In this document: in pieces, positions 15,745 through 34,172 of the stretch
Layout of the letters: the number at the start of each line of letters is the position of its first letter
Numbering within the stretch: position 1 is the stretch's first letter
Translations under genes and position numbers: made by a program
Assembly: GCA_963713825.1 (NCBI GenBank)
Contig: CAVQNG010000014.1
Span: 54,366-118,365, forward strand
Direction of reading: 5' to 3'
Source: an uncultured Acidobacteriota bacterium
GTDB lineage: Bacteria > Acidobacteriota > Thermoanaerobaculia > Multivoradales > JAHEKO01
Length of the DNA stretch: 64,000 nucleotides
Notes under the pieces: generated by a model
Told to the model about the DNA's origin: nothing
The model's database searches: none
The model's input: the letters and a program-made list of their open reading frames with translations, nothing else

Positions 15745-15754
15745 AACTGTTGTT

Positions 15755-17314: not shown

Positions 17315-17787
17315 CGCTTCACCCCCATTCCCGAAATTGTTCCCTCGCATACCAGGGTGCCGTCTGCGAGGGTCATGCTGGCTTTCGAGCGAATCTTGCT
17401 GCGGCGCCAGAATACCTTTGTGGCCGAGATGGTCACTTCCGTGTCCGGTGGCACCATGGCGAAGAACTCGACCTCGGCGTCGGCGAAAAGGGATACCGTC
17501 TGCTCGGCTTCCTCCAAGGTGTGATCGAGGGCGAACAGATAGATGCCCAGTGCCACGACGCCTGCTTGACCCAGCGCTTCCAAGAGGATGACACCGGGTG
17601 TGACGGGATCGCCTGGGAAGTGTCCGCGGTAGAAGTCGGCCTCGGGTCGAAATCGATAGGTTGCGACAATGTGTTCTTCGTCGATTTCCAGAATGCGGTC
17701 CACGAAGCGGAAGGGCTCCTGCTGGGGGAGCATCTCCAGAACCTGATCCGGAGTCAGTGGGCCGAGGACTTCTGCAGAGCCCTTCAT
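17311..17787 (-). CDS. fabZ: 3-hydroxyacyl-ACP dehydratase, FabZ-like hotdog fold
   Basis: FRFVDRILEIDEE...YRGHFPGDPVTPGVILLEALGQAG matches the FabZ signature (HFPG.P..PGV). ATGA overlap with the fabA stop. Confidence 0.8.
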   Translation of the reverse strand: MKGSAEVLGPLTPDQVLEMLPQQEPFRFVDRILEIDEEHIVATYRFRPEADFYRGHFPGDPVTPGVILLEALGQAGVVALGIYLFALDHTLEEAEQTVSLFADAEVEFFAMVPPDTEVTISATKVFWRRSKIRSKASMTLADGTLVCEGTISGMGVKR

Positions 17788-18374
17788 TCGCCCATCTTTC
17801 CGCCCCGAGAGTTTCTGGAGCGCCGAGGATAGTCTGGATAATCGATGTCGCGGAACATTCCCACTTTGGCCCGCTTGATCTCGTAGATCGGGTCGTCGTC
17901 GACGCAGACGGTCGCGTCACCGAGGACCACGGCTGAGCCAGAGGTCGCGAGCGTTTGGTAGCGCACGATGTCGACCTCGTACCGAACGATGCTATTGAAA
18001 GGCCGGATCTGCCCGGCGAACTCGACTTCGCCGCAGCCGAGGGCTCTACCCGAGCCAAGAGCACCTCGCCAGGCGCAGTAGAAGCCCAGAAGCTGCCAGA
18101 CGGCATCGACGCCGAGGCACCCCGGCTGCACCGGGTCCCCGAGGAAGTGACACTGAAAGAACCAATCGTCGACCCGAACGTCGCGCTCTGCGACGATTCG
18201 CCCGCGGGCCCGTTTCGAGGACACCTCGACGATGCGATCGATCATAAGCATCGGCGGCAGCGGCAAACCCGTTTTGAGCTCCGGTGGGGCGTCGTCGAAG
18301 AGAGAGCCGTGTGCGATTGCCAGCACCTCCTCGTGGGAGAAGCTGGACTGGTTCTGAAATTCTTCGTACTTCAA
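17784..18374 (-). CDS. fabA: 3-hydroxydecanoyl-ACP dehydratase/isomerase FabA
   Basis: PPMLMIDRIVEV, DDWFFQCHFLGDPVQPGCLGVDAVWQLLGFYCAW and GRALGCGEVEFAGQIRP align along the full length of E. coli FabA. TTG start at 18374 forms a TTGA overlap with the KAS III stop. The ATG at 18461 would overlap KAS III by 91 nt. Confidence 0.8.
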   Translation of the reverse strand: MKYEEFQNQSSFSHEEVLAIAHGSLFDDAPPELKTGLPLPPMLMIDRIVEVSSKRARGRIVAERDVRVDDWFFQCHFLGDPVQPGCLGVDAVWQLLGFYCAWRGALGSGRALGCGEVEFAGQIRPFNSIVRYEVDIVRYQTLATSGSAVVLGDATVCVDDDPIYEIKRAKVGMFRDIDYPDYPRRSRNSRGGKMGE

Positions 18375-19366
18375 GCCTGACCTCCGAACCGAAGGATGTA
18401 GCTCGACCAGGTGAGCCCCGAGCCCACACCGATGATGGCGATGTTGTCTCCGTCCTGCCATCGGTCCCAGTTCATGGAGATGACCGATGGTGCGGCAGCC
18501 GCCCCGGTATTCCCAAACTCGACAACATTGGAGTGATGGTGGTCGGCATCGACTCCGCAGCGCTCGCAGACTGTCTCGAGCATCCGGAGATTGGCCTGAT
18601 GGCCGATGAAGTGGAGGTCATCGGCCACTTCCGGGAACGCCTTCTTGAGGTCGCGGAAGCACCGAATGGTCTTCTTGATCGCGAACATCTGGACAGTCCG
18701 CCCCTCCTGATCGAAGTGACCGAATAGCGGTGCGATGACCTTTTCTCTTCCGGCAGGGCTCGAAGCCAGGGTATTGCCGAGAATCTCGGCTCGTCCGGGT
18801 CGGCGAGTCGAAAGGACGGCTGCGGTGGTGCCATCTCCCCACAGCACAGAGGCCGACCGGTCGGAGTAGTCGACGGTGGTTGTAAGGCTCTCAGGTGTCA
18901 CCAGCAAAATGAGCTCTGGTAGGGCCTCGGGGCGCATCATGGAGAGCATGTACAGGGCGGCCCACATACTCGTACAGGCCGAGTTGATATCGAACGCCGG
19001 GACCTCGAGCTCGAGGGCGTCGGCAATGGCGCAGGCGTCGGCCGGGGAGGACATCTCGGGCCGACTGGACCCGGCAATGACCAGGCCGATCTGATCCTTG
19101 TCGATACCGGCCCGCTGGAGGGCCATCTCGGCCGCCCTCTTGCCCGTCTCGGCATGGGAGTAGAGAGCCGCCTCGAGGGCCATGGAGGGGTCCGCATTTC
19201 GGGTGTCCCGAATGTAGTCGAGGGGCATTACGGTACGACGAGTCTCGATTCCTACCCTCTCTTCGATCCACTCCTGGCTCGTACCGATGTCGAGCTCTTC
19301 CAGGAATCGATTGGTGATCTGGACCTCGGAATGGAAATGGCCGAGGCTGTGCAGGAACAGGCTCAT
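18371..19366 (-). CDS. Beta-ketoacyl-ACP synthase III family (FabH-like)
   Basis: The N-terminus aligns to FabH (VQITNRFLEELDIGTSQEWIEERVGIETRR). Cys/His/Asn triad context: DINSACTS, IGHQAN, FGNTGAA. Confidence 0.8.
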   Translation of the reverse strand: MSLFLHSLGHFHSEVQITNRFLEELDIGTSQEWIEERVGIETRRTVMPLDYIRDTRNADPSMALEAALYSHAETGKRAAEMALQRAGIDKDQIGLVIAGSSRPEMSSPADACAIADALELEVPAFDINSACTSMWAALYMLSMMRPEALPELILLVTPESLTTTVDYSDRSASVLWGDGTTAAVLSTRRPGRAEILGNTLASSPAGREKVIAPLFGHFDQEGRTVQMFAIKKTIRCFRDLKKAFPEVADDLHFIGHQANLRMLETVCERCGVDADHHHSNVVEFGNTGAAAAPSVISMNWDRWQDGDNIAIIGVGSGLTWSSYILRFGGQA

Positions 19367-20319
19367 CGCGAGGCCCCCGAAATGCGTTCGCCACCGTCGA
19401 CCCGGATGATCTCGCCATTGATCCAGCTGGCCTCTGGCAGGCAGAGCAGGTAGATGGCATTGGCGACATCTGCAGGAGTGGTCAGACGATGGAAGGGGTT
19501 GCGGAGGCGGGCCAGCGCCTTGAGGTGGGCGCTACCCGGAATCATCCGCAGGGCATTCGTATCTGTGACGCCGGCTTGCACGATGTTGGAGCGAATTCCG
19601 TATGGCGCCATCTCGACTGCGATAGAGCGCGAGACCGATTCGAGCGCGACCTTGGCCGCAGCCACGGCGGCGTAGCCCTTCCAGGCGACTTCGTTGCCTT
19701 CGCTTGTGAGGCCGAGTACTCGGGCATCGGAAGCAAATAGGCCCCGTTCGAGGATCTCCTGCGTCCAGCCGAGGAGGCTCGTGCCCATGGCGTGAACGGT
19801 GCGCGCCATGTCCTCTTCTTCCAGGAAGAGGTCGGCCGAGTACTGCGGTGGGGTGGTGAGGCCCTGGACGCCGTCGCATCCCTCCTCGAACAGGCGGTCG
19901 GCAGTCTCCCGCACGACGCTCTCTTCGATGCCGAGTGCCGCGGCGAGCTGGGCGCCGGCCGTATCGTTGGACGGCGCTTCGGGTCCGACGAGTTTCAGGT
20001 TGCCGAAAGCGATGGAGTGGAGGAGGACCCGGATCTTGCCGCTCGGTGCGAGGGCCTCGGTCAGTGTGTCCAAGATCTCACTGCGGACCTCGGAGTCGAG
20101 GGCATCCCGGTTGAAGGTCACCAGGGAGACACCCCGCTGGCGGAGGCGCTCGAATTCCGGTTCGATCTTGCGCATCGCTCCCCGACGATCCCGGTGCACG
20201 ATGCAGAGGTTCAAGCCGTGTTCGGCCAGCTTGTGAGCGGTGGCCAGTCCAAAGCCGCTGGAACCGCCGAGGATCAGGGCCCATTCATCGGTGCTGAAGC
20301 GTGTCGCTGAGACGTTCAC
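19363..20319 (-). CDS. SDR-family reductase with FabI/FabL-type Tyr-x6-Lys (putative enoyl-ACP reductase)
   Basis: GTG start with an AGGAA RBS. ILGGSSGFGLATA glycine motif. YAAVAAAK gives the Y-x6-K spacing typical of enoyl-ACP reductases. First gene of the cassette; ATGA overlap with KAS III. Confidence 0.6.
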   Translation of the reverse strand: MNVSATRFSTDEWALILGGSSGFGLATAHKLAEHGLNLCIVHRDRRGAMRKIEPEFERLRQRGVSLVTFNRDALDSEVRSEILDTLTEALAPSGKIRVLLHSIAFGNLKLVGPEAPSNDTAGAQLAAALGIEESVVRETADRLFEEGCDGVQGLTTPPQYSADLFLEEEDMARTVHAMGTSLLGWTQEILERGLFASDARVLGLTSEGNEVAWKGYAAVAAAKVALESVSRSIAVEMAPYGIRSNIVQAGVTDTNALRMIPGSAHLKALARLRNPFHRLTTPADVANAIYLLCLPEASWINGEIIRVDGGERISGASR

Positions 20320-20654
20320 TCGGGTTTCCTTCCCGGTGGAGTGCAGGCTGAGACCACCGTAGATGCATCGACCGCAAGCTCGATGCCCGACTTAGCTATC
20401 TCCTTTGATCTGGGGACAGAGAATACCAAAGGGACCGGATCGAGGTGAAGCGAGAAGCCAACTACAGAACCGCCTCGAGTCGTGCCGAGCGAGCTCGCGG
20501 TTGATGGTCAGAGCCGTGTTCAGTGCGAATGACCGCTTATAGACTCATGGCTACTCATCAATTGGATTAGCTGCGCACGCCGCCTTATGATCGTTGGGTT
20601 GTTGGAACCATTGTGGTCGAGACTCTTGGGATGTGAACCGGAAGGAGGAGTTGC

Positions 20655-21863
20655 ATGTCGGGTGGAAGGTCGATTTATCTGATGGTGGGTTTAGTGTTGG
20701 TCATGCTGTTTTCGATCGTACCGGCTGAAGGGTCGGGTCGAGGGGCTGGAGACTTCGAGTCGTGGGAGTGGGACGTGATCAAGCCGAGTGATCGTTTCGA
20801 TGGAAGCTGGTCGCCGCGGGCTGGGCTTCAGGTGGTCAAGCTGCGCAACACCTTTTACCTCATGGGCGGACGAACTCCGAAGCCACCCAGCTTCCCTCCA
20901 ATTCCCGGCGATAGCATCATTTGGGGAGACGTTTGGAAGAGTCGTAATTTGGGACGTACCTGGGAGAGAATTCTCGACACCGACTCCCCAGGTCACTGGC
21001 CCGCTCGTGCCTACTTTCAGGTCGTGAAGAAAGGCGGGTGGATGTACGTGGTCGGAGGACAGAACTTCAAGGCCGGCCCGGTCGACTGCCCCGTAGACGT
21101 GCCGATTTGCTCCGACTTTTTCAGTGATGTCTGGCGCAGCAAGAACGGTGTCGACTGGGTCGAGCTGACCGACGATGCTGGCTGGGAGCCTCGTGCAGGT
21201 CTCAGCAGTATTGTCTTCCGAGGCGAGATCTATGTGATGGCTGGTTCTCAGAATGATGACGAGTCGATTGGTCCCGGCGGTCCGGCCAGGATCTACTTTG
21301 ACGACGTCTGGAAGTCTCGCAATGGCAGGGATTGGGAGCTCGTGACCCAACATGCCCCGTGGGAAGCGCGAGCCGGCGCGGTCCTGGTAGAGAAGAACGG
21401 CTATATGTACTTGCTGGGGGGAGAGGAAGGATTCGTTTGCGATCCACTGCCGTTTTGCGAACCCCCGTACTTCAACGACGTATGGCGGTCGCGGAACGGT
21501 GCCGACTGGGAGCTGGTCACCGAGGCGGCTGGATGGTCTCCGCGACCCGGGCACCAGTGTGCCGTGGTGTTGAACAACTTCGTCTGCTTCGGCGGCTTTG
21601 GCCTTCTCGAGAATCCACAGGACGTCTGGGTCAGCAAGAACGGTGCGGACTGGCGGCAGGTCAATGACTCACCGTGGAACTCGACCTCGGCGGATGACAT
21701 CAAGTACGACTTCGACGTCTTGGTGGTGCGGGGCGGCAAGCGAGGACAGCGCCCATCGATCTTCACCTTCGGCGGCGATCGGGAGACCTTCGATTTCACC
21801 GACCCCACCAACTTTCTGAGAGTCGACAACGACGTCTGGAGATACTCGCCGCCCAAGCACTAA
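20655..21863 (+). CDS. Secreted Kelch-type beta-propeller protein
   Basis: GGAAGGAGG RBS and a signal peptide MVGLVLVMLFSIVPAEG. Six repeats of the D(V)W(K/R)S.NG.DWE.V blade motif. Confidence 0.75.
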   Translation: MSGGRSIYLMVGLVLVMLFSIVPAEGSGRGAGDFESWEWDVIKPSDRFDGSWSPRAGLQVVKLRNTFYLMGGRTPKPPSFPPIPGDSIIWGDVWKSRNLGRTWERILDTDSPGHWPARAYFQVVKKGGWMYVVGGQNFKAGPVDCPVDVPICSDFFSDVWRSKNGVDWVELTDDAGWEPRAGLSSIVFRGEIYVMAGSQNDDESIGPGGPARIYFDDVWKSRNGRDWELVTQHAPWEARAGAVLVEKNGYMYLLGGEEGFVCDPLPFCEPPYFNDVWRSRNGADWELVTEAAGWSPRPGHQCAVVLNNFVCFGGFGLLENPQDVWVSKNGADWRQVNDSPWNSTSADDIKYDFDVLVVRGGKRGQRPSIFTFGGDRETFDFTDPTNFLRVDNDVWRYSPPKH

Positions 21864-21914
21864 CGAGGGACGAAGGTTCGACTTCACAGATTGTCGGATC
21901 GAGCTGCCTTGACG

Positions 21915-21949
21915 CTGCCCCGGCCAGCCGGATCACTGGCTCGGGGCAG
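21915..21949. terminator. GC-rich hairpin downstream of the Kelch gene (possible terminator, no U-tract)
   Basis: CTGCCCCG...CGGGGCAG 8-bp stem with a nested AGCC/GGCT stem. Confidence 0.25.
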
Positions 21950-22245
21950 CCTTCGAGGGAGTTTCCAACAGGCCATCGAGAATGGCTTCCGCGGTGCTTT
22001 CCAGATAGGCGAGCTCTACGCTCGCTGCCCTGTTCATCCCCCGGCCAGATTTCCTATCGAGTCACGGTTGGATCTGCCTTCCTCGGAGCATTCGCACGAT
22101 ATGCTGCCAGTATTGGGATGATTTGGACCAGGGATCTGTGTGACCTCTGGGGCAGTTTCGCTCTATCAGGGGAGGATCCGGTCGGCTTGGACCGCGCCCT
22201 GAGATCCGCCAGAGCGCAGGTTTCAGCGGTGGGGAGGGGCTAACG

Positions 22246-23316
22246 ATGCGTCTGTCGAAGATGATCCAAGCGGTTGACACCCATGTTTGCGGTGAGCCCG
22301 GGAGGGTGATCGTCGGTGGGGTGCTGGATGTTCCCGGCTCGACGATGTTCGAGAAGATGCGGTATCTCGAAACCGAGGCTGACGACCTGCGGCTGAGGAT
22401 GCTCCGGGAGCCGAGGGGCTATCCGGCGACCTGCTGCAATCTCATCCTGCCGCCGACCCATCCAGATGCGCACGCCGGTTACGTGATCATGGAACAGGTC
22501 GAGTACCCGGGGATGTCGGGCACAAACACGATCGCGGTGGCTACGGTGCTCATCGAGACGGGGATGGTGCCATCGCAAGAGCCAGTAACCGAGTTACTGC
22601 TCGAATCCCCAGCTGGCCTGATCGCGATTCGGGCAGACGTACGAGGGGGAAAAGTCGAGCGTGTGACTTTCGAGAATGTCCCGGCGTTCCCGGTCCAACT
22701 GGACGCCGAGGTCGAAGTGCCCCATATCGGCAAGGTGAATGTCGATGTAGCCTATGGCGGTATGTTCTACGTCATCGCGGATGCCGATCAGTTGGGACTG
22801 AGCTTGAGCGCCGCCGAAGGGGGGGAGGCCGCTCGGGTCGGAGAGATGATCAAGGCGGCGACCATCGAGCAGCTCGAAACGCCGGTCCATCCGGAGAACC
22901 CTGACATTCGGGGCGTGACGATCAGTCAATTGTCGGCTCCATCGACCAACCCGATCGCCGACCGCAAGAACACGGTGATCGTCTCCTCGGGCGAGCTGGA
23001 TTGGAGTCGGCCCAGCACCTGGACAGGTGTCCTCGACCGTTCCCCCTGCGGCACCGGCACATCGGCCAAGATGGCCTGTCTGTGGGCCAAAGGCCATCTA
23101 CCGCTCGATCAGGACTTCGTGCACGAGGGAATCTTGGGTACGACCTTCACTGGCAGGCTGGTGCGAGAGACAAAGGTCGGCAATATCGAGGCCGTTGTGC
23201 CAACGATCTCTGGCACTGCGTGGATCACGGGGTTCGCCCAGTACGTGGTCGATCCCGACGACCCCTTTCCCAATGGGTTTACCGTAGGTGACATCTGGGG
23301 CGGACAGGAGGAGTAA
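22246..23316 (+). CDS. Proline racemase-family enzyme (4-hydroxyproline epimerase / 3-hydroxyproline dehydratase-like), Ser/Cys active-site pair
   Basis: GGGGAGGGG RBS. MSGTNTIAV stands where epimerases carry MCGH(G), so the first catalytic Cys is replaced by Ser. DRSPCGTGTSAKMA retains the second catalytic Cys. Confidence 0.85.
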   Translation: MRLSKMIQAVDTHVCGEPGRVIVGGVLDVPGSTMFEKMRYLETEADDLRLRMLREPRGYPATCCNLILPPTHPDAHAGYVIMEQVEYPGMSGTNTIAVATVLIETGMVPSQEPVTELLLESPAGLIAIRADVRGGKVERVTFENVPAFPVQLDAEVEVPHIGKVNVDVAYGGMFYVIADADQLGLSLSAAEGGEAARVGEMIKAATIEQLETPVHPENPDIRGVTISQLSAPSTNPIADRKNTVIVSSGELDWSRPSTWTGVLDRSPCGTGTSAKMACLWAKGHLPLDQDFVHEGILGTTFTGRLVRETKVGNIEAVVPTISGTAWITGFAQYVVDPDDPFPNGFTVGDIWGGQEE

Positions 23317-23320
23317 GGGA

Positions 23321-24289
23321 ATGGTACAGATCATCCCTCTTGAAGTCATTGAACGCGTTCTGAAACGGATCGATGTCGTCGGGCTGATGGAGGAGGGCTT
23401 TGTCGCCTATTCTGAAGGGCGGGCGATGGTGCCGCCCGTCGGCGAGCTGATCTTCGAAGATCCACCGGGCGAAACCCACATCAAGTATGGCTACATCCGG
23501 GGCGGAGATCACTATGTCATCAAGATCGCCTCGGGTTTCTATGGGAATTCCGAGATCGGCTTGCCGTCGGGCAGCGGCTTGATGCTCCTTCTCAGCCAGA
23601 AGACAGGCTTCCTCGAAGCGGTCTTGCTCGACGAGGGCCGTCTCACCGATGTGCGGACCGCTGCGGCTGGTGCCGTGGCCGCTAAGCACCTGGCGCCGAG
23701 TGAGGTTCGGCGCATCGGAATTCTGGGTGGAGGAGTGCAGGCTCGACTCCAGTTGGAGCTCATGCTGCCGTTCATCTCGTGTCGGCAGGTCCTGGTTTGG
23801 ATGCGCGATCCCGCCGAGGCCGAGCCCTACCTGCAGTACTTCGCAGACTCGGATGCGGAGATCGAGATTGCAGGTAGTGCCGAGGAGGTCGCCGATGGCT
23901 GCAATCTGATCGTAACTGCGACTCCCTCCAAGACACCATTGCTTTCGGCGGCGAGCATCCAAGCCGGGACTCATATCACCGCCATTGGCTCGGATACGGT
24001 CGACAAGATCGAGTTGGCTCCGGAAATCCTCGGCAATGCGGACCTGGTTGTGGTCGACAGTCTCTCTCAGTCGGAAGCTCGGGGCGAGGTCTTTCGAGCT
24101 GTGGATGCGGGAGCACTGAGTCGCGAGACCGTTGTCGAGTTGGGTGCCGTCGTCGCGGGCCACGCTACGGGCCGAGTCGATGACAGCCAGGTGACCGTTT
24201 GCGACCTGACCGGAGTCGCCGTGCAGGACCTGATGATTGCCCAGGGCGTGAAAGACGGGGCCGACCCGGAATCAAGTCACGAGTTCTGA
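23321..24289 (+). CDS. Ornithine cyclodeaminase / mu-crystallin family protein (candidate delta1-pyrroline-2-carboxylate reductase)
   Basis: Start MVQIIPLEV at 23321 with an AGGGA RBS right after the preceding stop. Rossmann motif RIGILGGGVQA. OCD-family C-terminus. Confidence 0.8.
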   Translation: MVQIIPLEVIERVLKRIDVVGLMEEGFVAYSEGRAMVPPVGELIFEDPPGETHIKYGYIRGGDHYVIKIASGFYGNSEIGLPSGSGLMLLLSQKTGFLEAVLLDEGRLTDVRTAAAGAVAAKHLAPSEVRRIGILGGGVQARLQLELMLPFISCRQVLVWMRDPAEAEPYLQYFADSDAEIEIAGSAEEVADGCNLIVTATPSKTPLLSAASIQAGTHITAIGSDTVDKIELAPEILGNADLVVVDSLSQSEARGEVFRAVDAGALSRETVVELGAVVAGHATGRVDDSQVTVCDLTGVAVQDLMIAQGVKDGADPESSHEF

Positions 24290-24361
24290 ACAAGAGCTCC
24301 GTATTCGGATTTGGCTCGTTTCGTGTCTGTGGCTGAAGTGAATCTGTAACGGAAGACGGCA

Positions 24362-26369
24362 ATGAACCGGAAGCGCCTCCTGAACACGCTTGTGGCCTGC
24401 GGCATCTTCGGACTCGTGTCGCACTCTTCGATCGCAGCGCAGGCGAAGCGGGCGATGACCGTCGACGACATGCTCGACATGGTTCGCGTTGACGACGTCC
24501 TGATGACGCCGGATGGTTCGAGAGTCTTCTTCACCGAACGCCGACTGAACTGGGAGACGAACAAGTACGAGAAGACTCTATTCGCGATCTCTTCTCGCGG
24601 TGGCGAGGCCGTGCCGTTCGTGCGAAAGGACGGCGGGGAGAGCTACCGGATCTCTCCCGACGGGAAGTTCCTATCTCTCTTGCGAGAGGTCGAGGACAAG
24701 CCCCAGATCTTCCTGATGTCTCTGGAGGGCGGTGAGCCCTGGCAGTTGACTGAACACCAGGGCAAGATCACCGACTATCGATGGTCCGGCGATAGCAGGA
24801 GCCTCGTTTTCGTTTCCGAGCAGGCCATGTCCGAAGAAGAGGAGAAAGAGTTCAAGCTGGGCAACGACCCCATCTATGTCAATGAGGGGCCCAGCGGCAA
24901 GAATCACGGCAGGTGGACCCATCTCTGGCGGGTCGATCTTCAAGCCAAGGCCGAGATCCCGATCCTCGAAGAGGACCGCCTGATCGACGGCTTCGATGTG
25001 TCGCCGGACGGCTCGAGAGTGGTCTTCTCTGCCCGGCCTGACAATCGCGGCAACTTCCCGTTTACTTCGGAGCTCTATGTTGTCGATACAGAAGGTGGTG
25101 ATCCGATCAAGGTCACCGACAACCAGGATCTCGAGTTCGATCCGCTCTGGTCCCCCGATGGGAAGACCTTCGTCTTTCATGCCAGCAGCGGCAAGGGCTT
25201 CGATCTCAGGAACGGGTATCTCTGGATTCTGAATCCAGACACTGGGGCGCTCCGAAGGCTCGAAGCGCATCACATCGGCGAGATCGATCATCTGGTGTGG
25301 AGCGCTGATGGCAAGAGCCTGCTCTTCAATGAGGTACATGGCACCGACACCAACCTGTACAGGCTCGACATTGCCTCCGATGCGTTGGTGGCCCTGACGA
25401 GCCAGTCCGGGACCTTTCGCGCTCTCGCTTACTCGACAGGACAGAAGTGCGATTGCCTACTCCTTCAACGATTTCGATACACCGACGGACCTCTATGCAT
25501 CGGCTCTCGACGGATCTGGAGCCATCCGACTTACCGACGCCAACCCGTGGATCGAAGAAGACATTCTCCTTCCCAAGAGTCGAATTCTCCAGTGGAAGAG
25601 CTCGGACGGCACGAGCATCGAGGGCATCTTCATGCTTCCCTCTGACTACCGTGAAGGAGCGCAGGTGCCCCTGGTCTTGCAGATTCACGGCGGACCCAGT
25701 GGCTATTGGGCCAACGCCTTCGAACCGGACCTGATCGTCTACACGGGTCTCGGCTATGCGGTGCTGGGACCCAATGTCCGGGGTTCCAGTGGGTACGGTG
25801 ATGATCTGCTCAGGGGGCTGATGGGTGATGTCGGCGGGGGCGAGTATCAGGACCTGATGTCGGGAGTCGACCAAGTCATCGAGGCCGGCTATATCGACCC
25901 CGAGAAGATGGGAGTCGCTGGTTGGAGCTGGGGCGGCGTGCTGGCTGGCTGGGTGATCACCCAGACCGACCGATTCAAGGCGGCTTCCGTCGGTGCAGGG
26001 GTGAGCAATTGGATCGCGGAAAGCGGCCCGGGCTACAACTGGGACATCTCCCATTGGCACGTCGGTGGAAAGCACTGGACCAACCGAGACGAGTGGCGCC
26101 GCCGCTCGGCCATCAACTTCGTGGAGAACGTCCAGACGCCAACCCTGTTCTTGCACGGGGAGAAAGACCAGACGAGCAGTACCAACCAGAGTATGGTCTA
26201 CTTCGACGCTCTACAGGAGCGCGGCATCCCGACCCGATTCATCAAGTTCCCTCGGCAGGAGCACGGAATCCGCGAGCCACGACTCCTCAGGGTCCGCATC
26301 GTCGAAGAGATTCGATGGATGGAGAAGTACGTGCGCGGCGTTGACTGGTCGCCGTGGACTCGAGACTAG
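24362..26369 (+). pseudogene. S9 family peptidase (beta-propeller plus catalytic domain) interrupted by a +1 frameshift near 25448
   Basis: The 24362..25645 frame (signal peptide, propeller) reads sensibly to ...GTFRALAYSTGQK, then degenerates. The +1 frame continues AIAYSFNDFDTPTDLY...GWSWGG (Ser nucleophile) to the stop at 26369. Removing one base restores a ~668-aa protein. Either a true pseudogene or an assembly indel. Confidence 0.6.
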
Positions 26370-26388
26370 GGTGACAGGAGCGAAGAGA

Positions 26389-27318
26389 ATGCAATTCGAA
26401 GGCATCTACACACCGGTGATCACGCCGATGGGGCCCGATCGGGAGATCGATGAGAAGGGGTGGGTCGAGGTGATCGAGCACCTTGTGGGGCAGGGGATGC
26501 ATGGGTTGGTGCTGGGCGGTACGACTGGCGAGAACTACGCGCTGACGACCAAGGAGCGTATCCGCCAATTTCAGTACGGCAACGAGGTGATTGCCGGGCG
26601 GGTGCCGTGGGTTGCCGGCGTCAACGACATCCGGACCGAGGATGTCAGTGACTATGCGGTCGCTGCCCGAGAAGCCGGGGCCGCGGCGATCCTGCTGGCA
26701 GTGCCACCGTACTCGATACCCAACGACAAGGAGCTGGCACAGCATGCGTTGGCCGTTGACAAGGCCTGCGGCCTGCCGGTGATGTTGTACAACTACCCGG
26801 GACGATCGGGGACAGGGTTCGGGCGTGAGTTTCTCGAGAGGGTGAGTCGGAACAGTAACTTCACGGCGATCAAGGAGAGCAGCGGTGACCTCGACCGCAT
26901 CCATATGATTGCCCGGGAGTTCCCCCATCTGCAGCTGAGCTGCGGCGCGGACGATCAAGCCCTGGAGTTCTTTGTCTGGGGAGCGCGCTCATGGGTCTGT
27001 GCTGCGGGGAACTTCCTTGGTGCCGAGTGCATCGCCCTCTATGAAACCTGCGTGCTGCAAGAGGACTTCGCCAAGGGACGCCGGATCATGAAGGCTCTGC
27101 TGCCGGTCATGACGGTGCTGGAGCGGGGCGGGAAGTTCGCACAATGCGTGAAGTATGGATGCGAAATGGATGGGCTGCCGGCGGGAACCGTGCGTTTGCC
27201 CCTGCGGCCGATGAAGAAGGAACTGAAACGTCAGATGCGAGATGCGGTGTTGACGGCGCGGAAGACGATCAAGGGGATCTTGGCAGCATCGCCGGAGCCT
27301 GCAGCGCCAGCGAGCTGA
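26389..27318 (+). CDS. DapA/dihydrodipicolinate synthase-family lyase (candidate pyrroline-hydroxy-carboxylate deaminase)
   Basis: Start MQFEGIYTPVITPM with an AGGAG RBS. GLVLGGTTGE and YNYPGRSG motifs of the DHDPS/NAL family. The 26065 track ORF start is an upstream read-through overlapping the peptidase. Confidence 0.85.
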   Translation: MQFEGIYTPVITPMGPDREIDEKGWVEVIEHLVGQGMHGLVLGGTTGENYALTTKERIRQFQYGNEVIAGRVPWVAGVNDIRTEDVSDYAVAAREAGAAAILLAVPPYSIPNDKELAQHALAVDKACGLPVMLYNYPGRSGTGFGREFLERVSRNSNFTAIKESSGDLDRIHMIAREFPHLQLSCGADDQALEFFVWGARSWVCAAGNFLGAECIALYETCVLQEDFAKGRRIMKALLPVMTVLERGGKFAQCVKYGCEMDGLPAGTVRLPLRPMKKELKRQMRDAVLTARKTIKGILAASPEPAAPAS

Positions 27319-27378
27319 GCCACCGAGAGGAATGAGGATCTCCCAGCCTGACGGGATCACACGGATAGGAGTTTTGGT

Positions 27379-28906
27379 ATGACGGATGTTCTGACGCGAG
27401 AAGAGTACGTTGGGGTCGCGAAGGCCATGACGTATCCCGCCAGCTCGTGGATCAATGGGAAGTTCACGACCGCGAAGTCGGGGGAGACCTACGAATCGAC
27501 GAACCCTGCCACCGGTGAAGTTCTGGCCAAGATCGCCTCTTGTGGGCGAAGAGGAGGTGGACTACGCGGTGAAGAAGGCACGACAGGCCTTCGATGCGGG
27601 AGTGTGGTCGCGGCTGCATCCGTCCGAGCGCAAAGACATCATGATCCAGTGGGTCAAGCGCCTGAAGCGAGAGCGTTACGAGCTGACGGTTCTGGAGAGT
27701 CTCGAGAGCGGCAAGCCGGTCCGCGACATCGCCGAGATCGACCTCGAGGAGACGATCCACTGCCTGGCCTGGTATGCGGAGGCGGCCGACAAGCTGTTCG
27801 GCAAGATGACGCCATCGGGTGATGACGCCATGGGCCTGGTTGTACGAGAGCCGGTTGGCGTCGTGGGCTGCGTTCTGCCGTGGAATTTCCCGATGCTGAT
27901 GTTCGCGTGGAAGGTCGGTCCAGCGCTGGCGGCGGGAAATAGCGTCATCGTCAAGGCCGCAAAGGAAACGAGCATGACGGCGGTGCGCCTGGCGGAACTG
28001 GCGAGTGAAGCGGGTGTTCCGGATGGCGTATTGAACGTCGTGACCGGGCCCGGATCGAGGGTGGGGAAGGCGATTGGTACTCACGACGGAATCGACGCGG
28101 TTTCCTTCACGGGCTCGACCGAAATCGGTCGAGAGTTCTTGAAATACTCTGCAAACAGCAATCTAAAGAAGGTCACTCTCGAGCTCGGAGGCAAGAACCC
28201 GGCGGTGGTGCTGTCGGATGCCGAACACCTGGATGCGGTGGCCGAGCACGTGGTGAATGCCTGCTTCTGGAACATGGGGCAGAACTGCACCTCCAACAGT
28301 CGGCTCATCGTGCACAAGGACGTGAAGGAGGATCTGGTCGAGCGGATTCTCATCAAGGTTCGCGAATGGCGCACGGGTGATCCGCTGGAGCCGTCGAATC
28401 GGTTCGGCTCGATGGTGTCGAAAGAGCACTTCGACAAAGTCATGGGCTACATCGAGACCGGGAAGAAGGAGGGCGCGACCCTTCTGCTCGGGGGCGAGCC
28501 GATGGAGGAGGGAAGTGGCCTCTTCATTCCACCGACGATCTTCGACGACGTGACGCCCGAGATGACCATCTACAAGGAGGAGATCTTCGGGCCGGTTCTG
28601 GCCATCACGACCGCCGGCAGCGACGACGAGGCGCTGCTGCTCGGCAACGACACCTGCTACGGACTTCAGGCGTCGCTCTTCAGTGGGGGGCTGCGGAATG
28701 CCCTGCGTGGGGCCCGAGAGCTCAAGGCCGGCACCGTCTCGGTGAACAGCTACACCGAAGGCGACATCACGACACCCTTCGGCGGCATGAAGCTGTCTGG
28801 CTTCGGCGGCCGCGACAACGGGCTCGAGGCCTTCGACCAATACCTCGAAACGAAGACGATCTGGCTCGACCTGAGCGACTACGAGGTCGACGCCGAGCTG
28901 GACTGA
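27379..28906 (+). pseudogene. NAD(P)-dependent aldehyde dehydrogenase with a +1 frameshift near 27541-27546
   Basis: TAGGAG RBS. The N-terminus MTDVLT...STNPATGEVLAKIAS is in the 27379 frame. The rest (GEEEVDYAVKKARQAF...ELGGKNP...catalytic Cys region QNCTSNSR) is in the 27455 frame. One extra base in TGTGGG causes the shift. Confidence 0.6.
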
Positions 28907-28910
28907 CCCC

Positions 28911-29607
28911 TCAACCCTCCTTCCAGGGATTGGTCGCAAAGACGGCGAACTCGGGCCATAGAGCCCGGCGCTCGGCCGAGATCGCGGAGAGAATCGCGTC
29001 GGCGATATCGGAGGCGTAGAGCTTGTTGGGATTGTTGCGACCGACCTTGCCACCCCAGGCGGTCTGGACCTCGGAAGGGCACACGCAGATAACGCGGATG
29101 TCGTGCGGGCGTAGCTCAGCCTGCCAGCACTGACTCAACTCCTCGCACGGCCCACTTGCTTGCCGAGTAGGCGGTGCCGTGGGCGTGGCCCTTGATCCCC
29201 GAGGTCGAGGCGATGTTGACGATGTCGCCGCTGCCCTGCGCTTTCATCATGGGAACAACGCGGTTGGTCAAGTCGACCATTCCGAAAACGTTGGTGTTGA
29301 ACAGGGCCTTCATGGCGTCCATGTCGACCTCGCCGATCTCAGCCATGTAGCCGTAGCCGGCATTGTTGACCAACACGTCGATGCCGCCCATTCGCTCCTG
29401 ACAAGCCTCGACTGTACGAGCGTTGTCCTCGGCGATAGAGACATCAGCCTGCACTCCGTGTGCTCCCGTCTCCGCGGCCACCTGTTCGATCAACTCTTCA
29501 TTGCGCCCGGTGAAGACGACTTCGCCACCGCTCTTTCGGGCCGCTTCGACAATCGCGGCTCCGATCCCCTGACTGCCGCCGGTAATCAAGTATCGTGTCC
29601 CTGCCAT
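28911..29607 (-). pseudogene. Classical SDR oxidoreductase with a +1 frameshift near 29130
   Basis: The 29116..29607 ORF (TGGSQGIGAAIVEAA ... YSASKWAVRG) stops abruptly. The protein continues as LSQCWQAELRPHDIRVICVCPSEVQT in the 28911..29138 ORF. One extra G causes the shift. Confidence 0.55.
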
Positions 29608-29658
29608 GAGGTTTCTCCTTTGTTGATGAGGGCCGATCTTACAGCGTCGCGATCGGCA

Positions 29659-30057
29659 CTAGGCCAACTCGATGGGGCAGACCTGGCTCATGCGCTCGAA
29701 GTCGCGATCCGTGGTGAGCAACTGACAATCGTTCTCGATCGCGCTCGCTGCGATGTGACAGTCGATGGTAGAGGCACCCAGGCCATGATCTCGACATTGC
29801 CGATAGAGTCGCGCAGCTACCCGGCAGAGGCTGGATTCGACGGGGAGGAGTGGAAAAGGCTCGAAGTAATCGGCGATCTGGGAAGCCACCTTCTCACTTC
29901 GGAAAGCCTGCAGAATCTCCTGCAGGATCAAGGCTGTCAGAAACAGGTCCTCCCCGGTGTCCAGATAGCGACGCAGCTTCCTCACCGCTGGATGTTCGGC
30001 CGGACCGCCGCGGCGCAGAGCCAGCGACCATACCGAGGTATCGACGAGAATCCTCAC
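29659..30057 (-). CDS. vapC: Type II toxin VapC (PIN domain)
   Basis: GTG start at 30057 (VRILVDTSVWSLAL) forms a GTGA overlap with vapB. C-terminal PIN residues TTDRDFERM. Confidence 0.7.
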   Translation of the reverse strand: MRILVDTSVWSLALRRGGPAEHPAVRKLRRYLDTGEDLFLTALILQEILQAFRSEKVASQIADYFEPFPLLPVESSLCRVAARLYRQCRDHGLGASTIDCHIAASAIENDCQLLTTDRDFERMSQVCPIELA

Positions 30058-30254
30058 CGTCTCTGCCGCTCCTTCTTGTGGTCGTACTCGGCATCCCAAT
30101 CGACCCGGCCGAAGAGGCTGACGATTTCACGGCGCTTGCGCCGCGCTACGTACTCTTCCAGCGCCTCGTTGACGGCCTGCCTCTTGGTGCGGTGGCCCCC
30201 GAGTCTGCGGGCTTCATCGATCAGTTCGTCGTCGAGGGCGAGATTGGTGGGCAT
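30054..30254 (-). CDS. vapB: Type II antitoxin VapB (MPTNLALDDELIDEA-type)
   Basis: MPTNLALDDELIDEARRLGGHRTKRQAVNEALEEYV is the conserved VapB antitoxin N-terminus. Confidence 0.7.
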   Translation of the reverse strand: MPTNLALDDELIDEARRLGGHRTKRQAVNEALEEYVARRKRREIVSLFGRVDWDAEYDHKKERQRR

Positions 30255-30265
30255 GTGGGTGGCTC

Positions 30266-30300
30266 CTTTTACACATTAACTTACACATAATATCACACAA
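30266..30300. promoter_or_regulatory. AT-rich direct repeats TTACACA x2 (+TCACACA) upstream of vapB; candidate promoter/operator
   Basis: Seen in sequence 12-45 nt upstream of the vapB ATG at 30254. Stands out in otherwise GC-rich DNA. Confidence 0.35.
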
Positions 30301-30410
30301 CATCTCGGCTCGCACTGAGCTGCTGAGGTGGCAGCTACAGGAAAAGACGAACTCTGCGGTTGGATACTTGTGGCGAGAGCTCAGGCTGAAGGCTCGAGGC
30401 GAGTCGCCGG

Positions 30411-31307
30411 TCAGGCCGGCGCCAGCTCGCCTCGTCGCCTCCAGAACAGCCAGGCAACCAGGGCGATGGCGGCGACCGTGACAACACCGAACTCACCGAC
30501 CAGGTACTGTGCCGTGCCCTCCGATGTGGTGAGTCGATCGAAGAAGCTCTGAATGAAGGCATTGTGGCTGGCATGAAGAAGCACTGCCGTCCACAGACTC
30601 CCCGATTTGAGGCGCAACCAAGCGAAGATGAAGCTAGCGGCAATCGCCATCAGCGAAAATGTGACCAGGCTGAAAGCGGCCGATCCGCTCTGATAGCCGG
30701 CGACGAGAATCAGCGGCCAGTGCCAGGTCGCCCAGATGAGGCCAGAGATCCAGGAGGTGTTTGTATAGGAGGTAACTTCCGCCAGCCTCGGGACCAGCAA
30801 TCCGCGCCAACCGATCTCCTCGCCGAGGGCGAACAGGAGGTTGAAGAACATGCCGCGTGTCGCGATCAGCAAGAAGAATACGCCGAGTACGGCGCCATCA
30901 GACCCGAATGTCCATCCCCAGCGCTCGTCGAGTCGTTCGGCGATCTGCCCAAGCATCTCGTGGTCGAAGAACGCTCCGCCACTCGCCAGCCAGGCCAGAC
31001 CATAGGCCAAGGCCGCATAGAGAAGCGGCGTCCCGTAGCTGGCCAGCAGGTACCGTGGCTTGCCCAGCCCCCACCCGAGTCCCCGGAGATTCCGCTGGAA
31101 GGCAAACCGGGTGATCAGTGCCGCGACCCCCGGGCACCACATCAGTCCTAGAATGAGGAGAGCACCCGCAGCTTCGAGGTCCCCCGCCGCGATGATCTTG
31201 TAGTAGAAGATCGAGCTCAGGCCGAGGGTGAGCAATAGGAAGGTGATGATTTCCCGCCAAGCCCCGCCTGTGTGGGTGTGCTGGGATTCTTCAGTAGAGG
31301 CCCTCAT
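30411..31307 (-). CDS. CPBP-family intramembrane metalloprotease (CAAX protease / Abi-like)
   Basis: Multi-TM protein. EEIGWRGLL (EExxxR motif 1), FSLVTFS and HASHNAF (HxxxN/D motif). Confidence 0.8.
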   Translation of the reverse strand: MRASTEESQHTHTGGAWREIITFLLLTLGLSSIFYYKIIAAGDLEAAGALLILGLMWCPGVAALITRFAFQRNLRGLGWGLGKPRYLLASYGTPLLYAALAYGLAWLASGGAFFDHEMLGQIAERLDERWGWTFGSDGAVLGVFFLLIATRGMFFNLLFALGEEIGWRGLLVPRLAEVTSYTNTSWISGLIWATWHWPLILVAGYQSGSAAFSLVTFSLMAIAASFIFAWLRLKSGSLWTAVLLHASHNAFIQSFFDRLTTSEGTAQYLVGEFGVVTVAAIALVAWLFWRRRGELAPA

Positions 31308-31371
31308 AGACTGCCTTACGACCCTGAGATGAGTCGTGTTTCACTAACTACTCGGGACTATTGCGACGAGG

Positions 31372-32427: not shown

Positions 32428-32849
32428 GGTTCACCTCTATAGCTGTGCTGTCAAAAAGGAGGGTTGATGTAGTCGCTGAGCCGTGCCGCTCCCTTCAGTA
32501 CTCCAACCCGATTCGCAGCATCAGGCGGCGGGGTTTGACCCACATTCTGGGCACGAACTCGTCGCCTTCATTGAGCACGTAGTCACCGAACTGGACAACC
32601 GCAGAGCTGTTGAGCAGGGATCTCGAAAGAACCGAAGAAAAGACTTGACAAGATTTTCGCGTCATTTTTCGGAGCCTCTGAGGTCGACCCTTGAAAGAGT
32701 CTGTGTGGCCCTGGGTGACTTCCTGCGTGGCGTACCTCGCGATGCGTGACGAAAATGCCTCGAGGCCCCTCGATCGTGCGCCAGAAGACATCCTAAAGCG
32801 TTGAAAATAGTAGGTTTATAATGGTGCGTGACTCCTGGAGAGAACGCTC

Positions 32850-34172
32850 ATGATCGAACCTATTGCTACCCCGACTACGAAATCACAACTCGGCCCTGGA
32901 ACTTCGGAGGTCGACCAGCTCGGCGATCGAATCGCCGAGCTCTCGGCCCAGATCCAGGCTGCCACCTACCACCTGCTGGTCCTGATCCGGGAGTTCGACG
33001 AGAAGAGCGGTTGGAACACCGGCTTTCGCTCCTGTGCCCATTGGCTCAACTGGCGCACTGGGCTCGACCTGGGCGCGGCCCGGGAGAAGGTACGAGTGGC
33101 CAAGGCCCTGGGCGAGTTGCCGCTTCTTTCCGAGGCGATGGGTTGTGGGGAGCTCTCCTACTCCAAGGTCAGGGCCCTGACCCGAGTGGCGACCCGTGAG
33201 AACGAGGCGGAGCTCCTCGAATTCGCTCGGGCTGGAACGGCCGCCCATGTGGAGAAGCTGGTGCGGGCCTGGCGCCGTGTCGATCGGCAGGACGAGGTCC
33301 ACCGAGAGAATCTACGTCACGCCAGCCGCTACCTGGCGGCCACCACGGATTACGACGGCATGATCGTGCTACGGGCACGATTGGACCCGGAAGTGGGAGC
33401 CGCTCTGCTGAAAGCTCTGGAGGCAGCCGAGCAGGTGCTCTATGACAGAGAGCGGGAGACCAAGGACGAGCGAGGCGATGGAATCGCGGTCCGCCAGCGA
33501 CGAGCGGATGCCATAGGTCTTGTCGCCGAAAGTGCGCTGGATGGCGGGATGGACCAAGGAACTCGGGCCGAGCGCTTGCAGGTGGTGGTGCATGTCGACG
33601 AGGAGGTTCTGGCCGATCCGCAAGCCGCAGGGGTGTCCATGCTGGAGGACGGCACAGACGTTTCCGCGGAAACGTCCCGGAGGCTCTCCTGCGATGCCGG
33701 CAAGGTGGTCATGAAACACGATTCCGAGGGCAATATCCTCGATGTCGGCCGTCGAACTCGCACGATTCCCACCCCGATTCGCCGCGCTCTGACCGCCAGG
33801 GACGAAGGCTGCCAGTTTCCGGGCTGCGGATTGAAGCATTGCGAGGCTCACCACCTCAAACACTGGGCCGACGGAGGAAAGACCAGCCTCGAAAACCTGG
33901 TTCTGCTGTGTCGCCGTCACCATCGCGCCGTGCACGAAGAGGGATACCGCATCGAGCACATTGGGGATGGCGGGCTGCGCTTCTTCCGACCCCAGGGCTG
34001 GGAGATTCCGAGCGTTCCTCCGCCACCACCCCTGGTCGAGGACCCCTTGGCGGAGCTCGAGAGCCTGCTCGACGAGGAAGACATCTCGATCGACTCCCAC
34101 ACAGGGTTTCCGCGCTGGCAGGGAGAGCGACTCGACCTCAACTGGGCGGTCCAGGGCTATCGACAGCTGTGA
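32850..34172 (+). CDS. HNH endonuclease, DUF222 (REP13E12-type) family
   Basis: N-terminal DUF222 region. C-terminal HNH motif EGCQFPGCGLKHCEAHHLKHWADGGKTSLENLVLLCRRHHRAVHE. An AT-rich TATAAT-containing stretch lies 28 nt upstream. Confidence 0.8.
   Translation: MIEPIATPTTKSQLGPGTSEVDQLGDRIAELSAQIQAATYHLLVLIREFDEKSGWNTGFRSCAHWLNWRTGLDLGAAREKVRVAKALGELPLLSEAMGCGELSYSKVRALTRVATRENEAELLEFARAGTAAHVEKLVRAWRRVDRQDEVHRENLRHASRYLAATTDYDGMIVLRARLDPEVGAALLKALEAAEQVLYDRERETKDERGDGIAVRQRRADAIGLVAESALDGGMDQGTRAERLQVVVHVDEEVLADPQAAGVSMLEDGTDVSAETSRRLSCDAGKVVMKHDSEGNILDVGRRTRTIPTPIRRALTARDEGCQFPGCGLKHCEAHHLKHWADGGKTSLENLVLLCRRHHRAVHEEGYRIEHIGDGGLRFFRPQGWEIPSVPPPPPLVEDPLAELESLLDEEDISIDSHTGFPRWQGERLDLNWAVQGYRQL
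33658..33675. repeat. 18-bp perfect palindrome ACGTTTCCGCGGAAACGT (copy 1, inside the HNH ORF)
   Basis: Exact palindrome. The same core recurs at 34182-34197 and 35071-35088. Confidence 0.5.

What the first reader, a model, noticed from the sequence alone, without database searches (positions are those of the whole stretch)
24362..29607. Three +1 frameshifts in three adjacent genes of one catabolic locus
The S9 peptidase (~25448), the aldehyde dehydrogenase (~27541-27546) and the SDR (~29130) each need removal of exactly one base to restore a full-length, family-typical protein. Much longer genes elsewhere in the window, 3.6 kb and 4.6 kb, are intact. This is either localised pseudogenisation of a hydroxyproline or collagen-peptide catabolic island, or clustered assembly indels.
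Basis: seen in the sequence. Interest (0 to 1): 0.55.

Follow-up and report, generated by a model that had tools for sequence, protein, structure and literature searches.

The report
Three frameshifts, probably assembly consensus errors
Three neighbouring genes each carry one extra base that breaks the reading frame, but these most likely arose when the genome was assembled from a mixture of closely related strains, so the locus is probably intact in the living organism.

Summary
Compared with every near-identical contig I could retrieve, the window has exactly three extra bases: A at 25438 (S9 peptidase), C at 27547 (aldehyde dehydrogenase) and A at 29137 (SDR, minus strand). Each causes a +1 frameshift. 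I saw no other broken gene in the 64 kb.

The most likely cause is a consensus error made where co-occurring strains were collapsed, not gene decay.
- Six independent contigs cover each site, and none has the frameshift.
- The truncated proteins are on record for one contig only, the 347,595-bp source contig.
- Base changes on the window's own lineage in the three genes are 12 synonymous to 1 non-synonymous, so selection stayed in force.
- At site 3 the window is an out-of-register hybrid of two real haplotypes of an 11-bp multi-nucleotide variant. It reads CGA GGA G (A-type) followed by TTG AGT (B-type, seen in L173), so the G/T variable position appears twice.
- A short-read contig 100% identical to the window stops exactly at that variant.
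- A sister contig with a Flye-style name (L181) has six more +1 insertions in the orthologous locus, some with the same signature. That makes nine insertions and no deletions.

Sites 1 and 2 fit the same pattern, but I found no matching second haplotype for them. Read pile-ups would settle the question. Confidence in artefact is about 0.8 and interest is low.

The parts
22246..23316 (+). Proline racemase family gene (356 aa), intact. It is most similar to trans-3-hydroxy-L-proline dehydratase and 4-hydroxyproline epimerase models.
   Evidence: Pfam PF05544, E=2e-119. NCBIfam best hits are below their cut-offs. The exact protein occurs on 5 other contigs.
23321..24289 (+). Ornithine cyclodeaminase/mu-crystallin family gene (322 aa), intact.
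   Evidence: Pfam PF02423. No gaps against L091 or L003.
24362..26369 (+). S9 (prolyl oligopeptidase family) peptidase gene, split by one extra base into ORFs 24362-25645 and 25632-26369. The repaired product is 668 aa.
   Evidence: The intact 668-aa orthologues have PF00326.
25438..25438 (+). Extra A (site 1). The window reads TAC TCG AC[A] G GAC AGA; relatives read TAT TCG ACG GAY AGA. A synonymous T>C change found in no close relative lies 6 bp upstream, at 25432.
   Evidence: The base is absent from L001, L002, L003, L005, L091 and L102. Private SNP list. An A at the adjacent position exists in the distant relative L007, whose codon is CGA.
26389..27318 (+). DHDPS-family gene (309 aa), intact. 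It lies between two of the broken genes.
   Evidence: Pfam PF00701. The exact protein occurs on 6 other contigs.
27379..28906 (+). Aldehyde dehydrogenase gene, frameshifted after codon 55. The repaired product is 508 aa.
   Evidence: Pfam PF00171 on the intact orthologue.
27547..27547 (+). Extra C (site 2). The window reads TGT GGG [C] GAA GAG; close relatives read TGT GGG GAA GAG.
   Evidence: The base is absent from L001-L004, L006, L091 and L007. The more distant L181 lineage has GGG CAA, that is, a C at the adjacent position.
28911..29607 (-). Short-chain dehydrogenase/reductase gene, frameshifted at about codon 158, after the YxxxK motif. The repaired product is 231 aa.
   Evidence: Pfam PF00106 on the intact orthologue. 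All 10 members of its 90% cluster are 231 aa.
29133..29143 (-). Multi-nucleotide variant that contains site 3 (extra base at 29137). In gene orientation:
- A-type: CGA GGA GTG AGC
- B-type: CGC GGG TTG AGT
- window: CGA GGA G TTG AGT
The window is A-type on the left and B-type on the right, with the G/T position present twice.
   Evidence: A-type is seen in L001, L004, L091, L172 and L175. B-type is seen in L173, which also shares the window's otherwise private SNPs at 29049, 29133, 29271, 29405 and 29446. L174 is 100% identical to window 29144-31325 and ends one base before the variant.
29659..30254 (-). VapC (PIN) and VapB toxin-antitoxin pair next to the SDR gene. It is a strain-variable insertion and is not part of the frameshift problem.
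   Evidence: Pfam PF01850 and PF09957. Present in L001 and L172-L180; not among the genes called at the corresponding place in L091.

Best explanation
The three extra bases are most likely errors in the consensus sequence of the deposited metagenome-assembled contig, not mutations carried by cells.

The population contains several co-occurring strains that are 96-99% identical. Where reads of two haplotypes differ at one or several neighbouring positions, an aligner can represent the substitution as an insertion plus a deletion. A polisher can then accept only one of the pair. Both alleles of the variable position end up side by side, which adds one base and produces a +1 frameshift.

Shown: the insertions are unique to the source contig. 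Site 3 has exactly this two-haplotype hybrid structure. A sister contig with a Flye-style name has six more +1 insertions of the same type in the same locus.

Inferred: that the source contig is a long-read (probably Nanopore, Flye plus Medaka) assembly; that sites 1 and 2 arose in the same way; and that the three genes are intact in the organism.
For: 1. Six independent contigs cover each site, and none has the frameshift. At site 3, five lack the extra base and the sixth, L173, carries the in-frame B-type variant.
2. The truncated products (427, 245 and 163 aa) are on record for exactly one contig, of 347,595 bp.
3. Substitutions found in the window but in no close relative number 12 synonymous to 1 non-synonymous in the three broken genes, over about 992 synonymous and 3229 non-synonymous sites. 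Under neutrality the chance of at most 1 non-synonymous change in 13 is about 3e-7 (my calculation). All three genes also stay open to their normal stop codon after repair.
4. At site 3 the window equals the A-type left half plus the B-type right half of an 11-bp variant, with one position doubled. Both haplotypes exist in real short-read contigs, and L173 shares the window's flanking alleles on both sides.
5. L174, a short-read contig 100.000% identical to the window over 2182 bp, ends one base before that variant, as expected at an assembly-graph branch.
6. L181 (ERZ25039600 contig_44233, 555,571 bp) has six +1 insertions within about 1.24 kb of the orthologous OCD and DHDPS genes. Examples are GG[G][C] where relatives have GGG or GGC, and GAG [A][G]CT where relatives have ACT/AGT or GCT.
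7. All nine events in the two long contigs are single-base insertions, and none is a deletion. Two of the window's three are not copies of a neighbouring base.
8. A close relative, L008, is a Microflora Danica long-read MAG. That project used Nanopore-only Flye assemblies with one round of Medaka, and deposited both assemblies and MAGs at ENA (PMC12313526). Nanopore consensus indels are a known cause of frameshifts (PMC9262707).
Against: - No reads were available, so the artefact is inferred and not observed.
- The sequencing technology of the source contig is not known directly.
- For sites 1 and 2 I found no close-strain contig carrying the predicted second allele. The matching alleles are seen only in more distant lineages (L007 and L181), which could be coincidence.
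- Errors scattered at random would not be expected to cluster within 3.7 kb of 64 kb. The explanation therefore needs a local cause, strain mixing at this locus, which is plausible but not measured.
- The hits fall in neighbouring genes of one apparent catabolic cluster, which is also what relaxed selection on a pathway would produce.
- Other long contigs (L091 and L008) show no such errors.
Confidence: 0.8

Rival explanations
1. The frameshifts are real and very recent. One strain has lost the S9 peptidase, the aldehyde dehydrogenase and the SDR through three independent single-base insertions, after selection on this catabolic locus relaxed.
For: - The three hits cluster in neighbouring genes of one apparent catabolic cluster, with no other broken gene seen in 64 kb.
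- Substitution-level accuracy of the contig looks high: L174 matches it 100% over 2182 bp.
- Other clusters of private SNPs exist in the window (22123/22127/22128 and 28729/28732), so multi-nucleotide events do occur naturally here.
Against: - No other contig shares any of the insertions.
- Private substitutions are 12 synonymous to 1 non-synonymous. All three events would therefore have to be extremely recent. If indels arise at roughly one tenth the rate of substitutions, two further frameshifts accompanied by at most one neutral non-synonymous change has a probability of about 0.04 (my estimate).
- All three are insertions, whereas bacterial mutation spectra usually favour deletions. Two of the three are not slippage-type duplications of a neighbouring base.
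- Site 3 is a perfect but out-of-register chimera of two existing haplotypes. Point mutation would produce that only by coincidence.
- L181 shows six more +1 insertions in the same locus.
Confidence: 0.15
2. The extra bases are real and arose by a natural recombination mechanism. Heteroduplex DNA formed between co-occurring strains at multi-nucleotide variants paired with one-base loops. Each loop was then repaired separately, so both alleles were kept.
For: The both-alleles-in-tandem structure at site 3 and at two L181 sites would also fit such a process. The strains clearly exchange alleles, because the SNP patterns are mosaic.
Against: - Homologous recombination is normally in register.
- An in-register duplex with mismatches should be more stable than one with two bulges (established knowledge of duplex stability).
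- The process would have to happen nine times in two contigs, always with a net gain of one base, and never in any of the short-read contigs.
Confidence: 0.03
3. The genes are expressed through programmed +1 ribosomal frameshifting or transcriptional slippage.
For: All three shifts go in the same direction (+1).
Against: - Orthologues 96-99% identical need no frameshift.
- There is no slippery run, no in-frame stop and no rare-codon stall at the sites. The zero frame runs on for 200 nt after site 1.
- The three sites share no sequence motif.
Confidence: 0.01

Closest known systems
Indel consensus errors in long-read (Nanopore) metagenome assemblies, which truncate predicted proteins (the problem the IDEEL test measures; PMC9262707)
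   Same: Single-base indels occur in one assembly only. They split genes whose orthologues are full length, and a sister long contig from the same population is affected as well.
   Different: The classic Nanopore error is a miscount, usually a deletion, in a homopolymer run. Here all events are insertions. Most are outside homopolymers and sit at positions that vary between co-assembled strains, which points to haplotype collapse during consensus or polishing and not to base-calling of runs.
Bacterial pseudogenes formed by frameshift after relaxed selection on a pathway
   Same: Frameshifts occur in several neighbouring genes of one apparent catabolic cluster.
   Different: There is no excess of non-synonymous change, no further disabling mutation and no deletion. 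The alleles are not shared with any other assembly, and one of them is a chimera of two haplotypes.
Programmed +1 frameshifting, as in prfB (release factor 2)
   Same: A +1 shift is needed to make the full-length protein.
   Different: There is no conserved shift site, no in-frame stop with an upstream Shine-Dalgarno-like element, and no conservation among orthologues.
Bacterial hydroxyproline catabolic gene clusters (proline racemase family enzyme, Pyr2C reductase of the OCD family, DHDPS-family Pyr4H2C deaminase, alpha-ketoglutarate semialdehyde dehydrogenase)
   Same: The same four protein families lie side by side. Similar DHDPS-ALDH pairs are found in many Alphaproteobacteria and other phyla.
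   Different: No NCBIfam equivalog threshold is reached. No D-hydroxyproline dehydrogenase was identified. An S9 peptidase is inserted between the OCD and DHDPS genes in this clade only.

Membership tests
Assembly or consensus indel artefact at strain-variable sites | The indel is present in one assembly only and absent from independent assemblies of the same population. | tested here: met
   Six contigs per site have no frameshift. The truncated products are on record for one contig only.
Assembly or consensus indel artefact at strain-variable sites | The erroneous sequence is a mis-registered mixture of two real haplotypes. | tested here: met
   Met at site 3, where the window is the A-type left half plus the B-type (L173) right half with one position doubled. 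At sites 1 and 2 this is only consistent, because the matching alleles are seen in distant lineages only.
Assembly or consensus indel artefact at strain-variable sites | The same error type recurs in other contigs produced in the same way. | tested here: met
   L181 has six +1 insertions in the orthologous OCD and DHDPS genes. That L181 and the source contig share an assembly method is inferred from contig naming and size, not shown.
Assembly or consensus indel artefact at strain-variable sites | Reads do not support the extra base. | not testable with these tools
   No read data were accessible.
Pseudogene under relaxed selection | The ratio of non-synonymous to synonymous change is elevated on the lineage that carries the lesion. 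| tested here: not met
   Window-private substitutions in the three genes are 12 synonymous to 1 non-synonymous.
Pseudogene under relaxed selection | The disabling mutation is found in independent samples of the lineage. | tested here: not met
   No other contig carries any of the insertions. L173, the closest haplotype at the SDR gene, is in frame. Coverage of the exact strain is thin, so this is a weak negative.
Programmed +1 ribosomal frameshift (prfB type) | The frameshift site is conserved among orthologues. | tested here: not met
   All orthologues are in frame.
Programmed +1 ribosomal frameshift (prfB type) | A slippery codon is followed by an in-frame stop or a slow codon, with an upstream stimulator. 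| tested here: not met
   There is no stop at or near any shift site and no shared motif.
Hydroxyproline catabolic gene cluster | A proline racemase family enzyme, an OCD-family reductase, a DHDPS-family deaminase and an aldehyde dehydrogenase are encoded together. | tested here: met
   Pfam PF05544, PF02423, PF00701 and PF00171 in consecutive genes.
Hydroxyproline catabolic gene cluster | Each enzyme is assigned to a specific hydroxyproline-pathway orthologue group. | tested here: inconclusive
   The best NCBIfam hits include trans-3-hydroxy-L-proline dehydratase and alpha-ketoglutaric semialdehyde dehydrogenase models, but all fall below their curated cut-offs.

The most novel reading that the evidence does not exclude
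The extra bases are real and record a natural process. In this reading, recombination between co-occurring strains at multi-nucleotide variants leaves both alleles in tandem and inactivates genes. This would be a recombination-driven source of frameshifts that specifically hits strain-variable loci, here a putative hydroxyproline or peptide catabolic cluster, in two separate lineages.
Probability: 0.04. Interest if true: 0.55.

Novelty: not a real feature. Interest (0 to 1): 0.1.

Why it matters
If the verdict is right, the finding has no biological meaning for this organism. The S9 peptidase, aldehyde dehydrogenase and SDR should be treated as intact, and the locus should not be counted as a case of pathway loss.

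The practical value is as a warning. Long contigs from strain-rich populations can carry clusters of +1 insertions at positions that vary between strains. These look like localised pseudogenisation and would inflate pseudogene counts or distort metabolic reconstructions.

The 'both alleles in tandem' signature, checked against short-read contigs of the same population, is a simple way to recognise such errors without reads.

Tried and rejected
- **Truncated products.** Exact-product look-ups of the truncated ORFs with the look-up of encoding contigs returned nothing. The cluster look-up then showed that they are on record only for the hidden 347,595-bp source contig. This ruled out the idea that the frameshifts had been introduced into the window artificially.
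- **Contigs of the exact strain across sites 1 and 2.** The strain-specific OCD protein is on no other contig. Partial proteins at contig edges are not indexed. A homologue search with the ALDH N-terminus returned only 12 hits, none closer than 92% identity. The JGI metagenome scan added only one useful contig, L102, which is A-type.
- **Methylation motif.** I looked for a shared motif at the three sites that might explain systematic base-calling errors and found none (by eye).
- **Repeat-templated mutation.** The insertion at site 1 creates GACAG GACAG. I did not pursue this, because site 3 is better explained as a hybrid of two haplotypes.
- **Other broken genes.** Overlapping same-strand ORF pairs (402-2846/2528-3769, 36866-39853/39654-44249, 60986-62896/62754-63959, 57759-58118/58084-58440 and 45336-46283/46344-47345) turned out to be separate complete genes.
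- **Supplementary tables.** The supplementary tables of the Microflora Danica paper are not held, so I could not link ERZ25039600, ERZ25073479 or ERR11523668 to that project.


Full report
**Observation**

Three-frame translation shows the following.
- The S9 peptidase reads in one frame from 24362 to about 25440, then continues in the +1 frame to 26369.
- The aldehyde dehydrogenase starts at 27379 and moves to the +1 frame near 27545.
- The minus-strand SDR starts at 29607 and moves to the +1 frame near 29135.

The intact DHDPS-family protein (26389-27318) served as an exact-match probe. It retrieved six metagenome contigs, L001-L006, that are 96-98% identical to the window. In all of them the S9 peptidase (668 aa), ALDH (508 aa) and SDR (231 aa) are intact.

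Over window 22839-31293 these contigs differ from the window by exactly three gaps. The window has an extra A at 25438, an extra C at 27547 and an extra A at 29137. Removing those bases restores products of 668, 508 and 231 aa.

A 434.8-kb contig of a related MAG (L091, GCA_942492515.1) is 98.0% identical over window 14415-29644. It shows the same three gaps plus one private intergenic gap of its own. L102 also lacks the extra base at site 1.

**Rest of the window**

Pfam scans of all large open frames show complete domain coverage and no other split gene. Suspicious overlapping or abutting ORF pairs turned out to be separate genes. The three frameshifts are therefore the only ones I saw in the 64 kb, and they lie within 3.7 kb. 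If three events were placed at random, that would have a probability of about 0.01 (my estimate).

**Are the frameshifts in the public record, and are they shared?**

The truncated products are in the protein collection: the 427-aa S9 N-terminal fragment, the 245-aa S9 C-terminal fragment and the 163-aa SDR fragment. Each is on record for exactly one contig, of 347,595 bp, held by NCBI and ENA. The frameshifts therefore belong to the deposited source contig, and I found them in no other assembly.

The 90%-identity clusters of the S9, ALDH and SDR proteins otherwise hold mostly full-length members. Names attached to neighbouring cluster members, together with the closest genomes, place the organism in Thermoanaerobaculia (Acidobacteriota).

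**Selection test**

I listed positions where the window carries a base found in none of the 2-8 close relatives that cover the position. In the three broken genes, read in the repaired frame, there are 12 synonymous and 1 non-synonymous such changes. The genes offer about 992 synonymous and 3229 non-synonymous sites. Under neutrality, at most one non-synonymous change among 13 has a probability of about 3e-7 (my calculation).

The intact neighbours look the same: 5 synonymous and 1 non-synonymous change. After repair, each broken gene stays open to its normal stop codon. The genes were therefore under purifying selection for essentially the whole history of this lineage. The frameshifts are either extremely recent or not real.

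**Anatomy of the insertions**

All three events are insertions. Two of them are not copies of an adjacent base: the A between C and G at site 1, and the C inside a run of four G at site 2. Two have a window-private synonymous SNP 4-6 bp away, at 25432 and 29133.

**Site 3 resolved**

A look-up with the neighbouring VapC protein brought in nine more contigs. L173 is a SPAdes contig from ERZ25073479, 98.97% identical to the window. It shares the window's otherwise private SDR alleles at 29049, 29133, 29271, 29405 and 29446, and it is in frame. In gene orientation the three versions read:
- A-type (L001, L004, L091, L172, L175): GCC GTG CGA GGA GTG AGC CAG (AVRGVSQ)
- B-type (L173): GCC GTG CGC GGG TTG AGT CAG (AVRGLSQ)
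- Window: GCC GTG CGA GGA G TTG AGT CAG

The window is therefore the left half of the A-type joined to the right half of the B-type, and the G/T variable position is present twice.

Point mutation would produce such an out-of-register chimera of two existing haplotypes only by coincidence, and homologous recombination is normally in register. It is the expected result when reads of two haplotypes are piled up, the adjacent substitutions are represented as an insertion plus a deletion, and only the insertion is accepted.

L174 is a Logan short-read contig from ERR11523668. It is 100.000% identical to window 29144-31325 and stops one base before the first variable position of this variant. That fits an assembly-graph branch where both haplotypes occur in that sample.

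**Sites 1 and 2**

Both fit the same scheme. At site 1 the window reads AC[A]G where relatives have ACG. At site 2 it reads GGG[C]GAA where relatives have GGG GAA.

In both cases the inserted base is an allele seen at the adjacent position in more distant lineages: CGA in L007, and GGG CAA in L181. I could not find a close-strain contig with the predicted second haplotype. For these two sites the mechanism is therefore inferred by analogy.

**A sister long contig shows the same thing**

L181 is ERZ25039600 contig_44233, 555,571 bp long, with a Flye-style contig name. It is a more distant relative that carries the orthologous locus without the S9 gene.
- Its OCD gene passes through frames 0>1>2>0 and then 0>1>2.
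- Its DHDPS gene shifts once.
- In total there are six single-base insertions within about 1.24 kb relative to every other sequence.
- At least two repeat the signature at positions where both alleles are documented among relatives: GAC GG[G][C] CTG, where relatives have GGC or GGG, and GAG [A][G]CT, where relatives have ACT/AGT or GCT.

Together with the window, this gives nine insertions and no deletion. That is unlike natural bacterial indel spectra, which usually favour deletions (established knowledge). The other relatives checked show no frameshifts in these genes (L007, L008 and L092; L091).

**Likely technical background**

One close relative, L008, is a Microflora Danica long-read MAG. 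That project assembled Nanopore-only metagenomes with Flye, polished them with one round of Medaka, and deposited both assemblies and MAGs at ENA (PMC12313526). Indels in Nanopore consensus sequences are a recognised cause of frameshifted gene calls (PMC9262707).

Short-read assemblies of this population break into pieces of 1-9 kb because of strain diversity. Contigs of 347 kb and 555 kb are therefore most plausibly long-read products. I could not verify that the window's source belongs to that project.

**The locus itself**

The genes run in this order:
1. proline racemase family
2. OCD/mu-crystallin family
3. S9 peptidase
4. DHDPS family
5. aldehyde dehydrogenase
6. SDR, on the opposite strand
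7. a VapBC pair
8. an Rce1-like protease

This composition resembles known hydroxyproline catabolic clusters. No NCBIfam equivalog threshold is reached, however, so the pathway assignment stays at family level.

**Verdict**

The best explanation is a consensus artefact at positions that vary between strains (confidence about 0.8). Real, very recent triple inactivation remains possible (about 0.15). Programmed frameshifting is effectively excluded, because the shift is not conserved and there is no shift signal. Read pile-ups or exact k-mer counts at the three sites would decide the matter.

Noticed in passing
L181:10288-12188 (ERZ25039600 contig_44233): A related 555-kb contig has six single-base insertions in its OCD and DHDPS genes, all +1. 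Three of them lie within 55 nt and together restore the frame.
   Followed up: yes
window 29659-30254: A VapC/VapB toxin-antitoxin pair lies between the SDR and the Rce1-like gene in the window and in L001 and L172-L180. L091 has different genes at this place, so the pair is a strain-variable insertion.
   Followed up: partly
window 24362-26369 compared with L181, L008 and L092: The S9 peptidase gene sits between the OCD and DHDPS genes only in the window's clade and in L007. It is absent from the orthologous locus of L181, and no S9 match was found in L008 or L092. The peptidase therefore looks like a later addition to the cluster.
   Followed up: partly
window 22123-22128 and 28729-28732: Window-private SNPs form tight clusters: three within 6 bp in the intergenic region upstream of the proline racemase family gene, and two within 4 bp in the ALDH gene. 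This suggests multi-nucleotide variants or short imported patches.
   Followed up: no
window 45336-46283 and 46344-47345 (minus strand): Two tandem paralogous proteins (315 and 333 aa) have hydrophobic N-terminal stretches that look like signal peptides and a shared motif, IQAALDSITDA.EDNPYLVYVAPGVY. Neither has a Pfam match.
   Followed up: no
window 14424-20319 (minus strand): This is a fatty-acid or aryl-polyene-like biosynthetic cluster: phosphopantetheinyl transferase, acyltransferase, ACP, ketosynthase, two FabA/ApeI/ApeP-like dehydratases, KAS III and an SDR. Identification rests on the gene calls of the 98%-identical L091.
   Followed up: no
window 39654-45016 (minus strand): A 1528-aa protein combines a Ser/Thr kinase domain, an nSTAND1 NTPase domain and WD40 repeats. 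It lies next to a gene with a Sigma-70 region 2 domain (ECF-type sigma factor?).
   Followed up: no
window 57172-58440 (minus strand): A HepT-like ribonuclease and a nucleotidyltransferase (MNT) form a toxin-antitoxin pair, followed by a DUF6933 gene.
   Followed up: no
window 32832-34172: This gene encodes a DUF222 plus HNH endonuclease protein, a type often linked to mobile DNA. It lies in a stretch with few confident gene calls (31.4-36.8 kb).
   Followed up: no
window 402-2846 (minus strand): A second, intact S9 family peptidase (about 800 aa, with PD40 repeats and a Peptidase_S9 domain) lies at the left end of the window.
   Followed up: no
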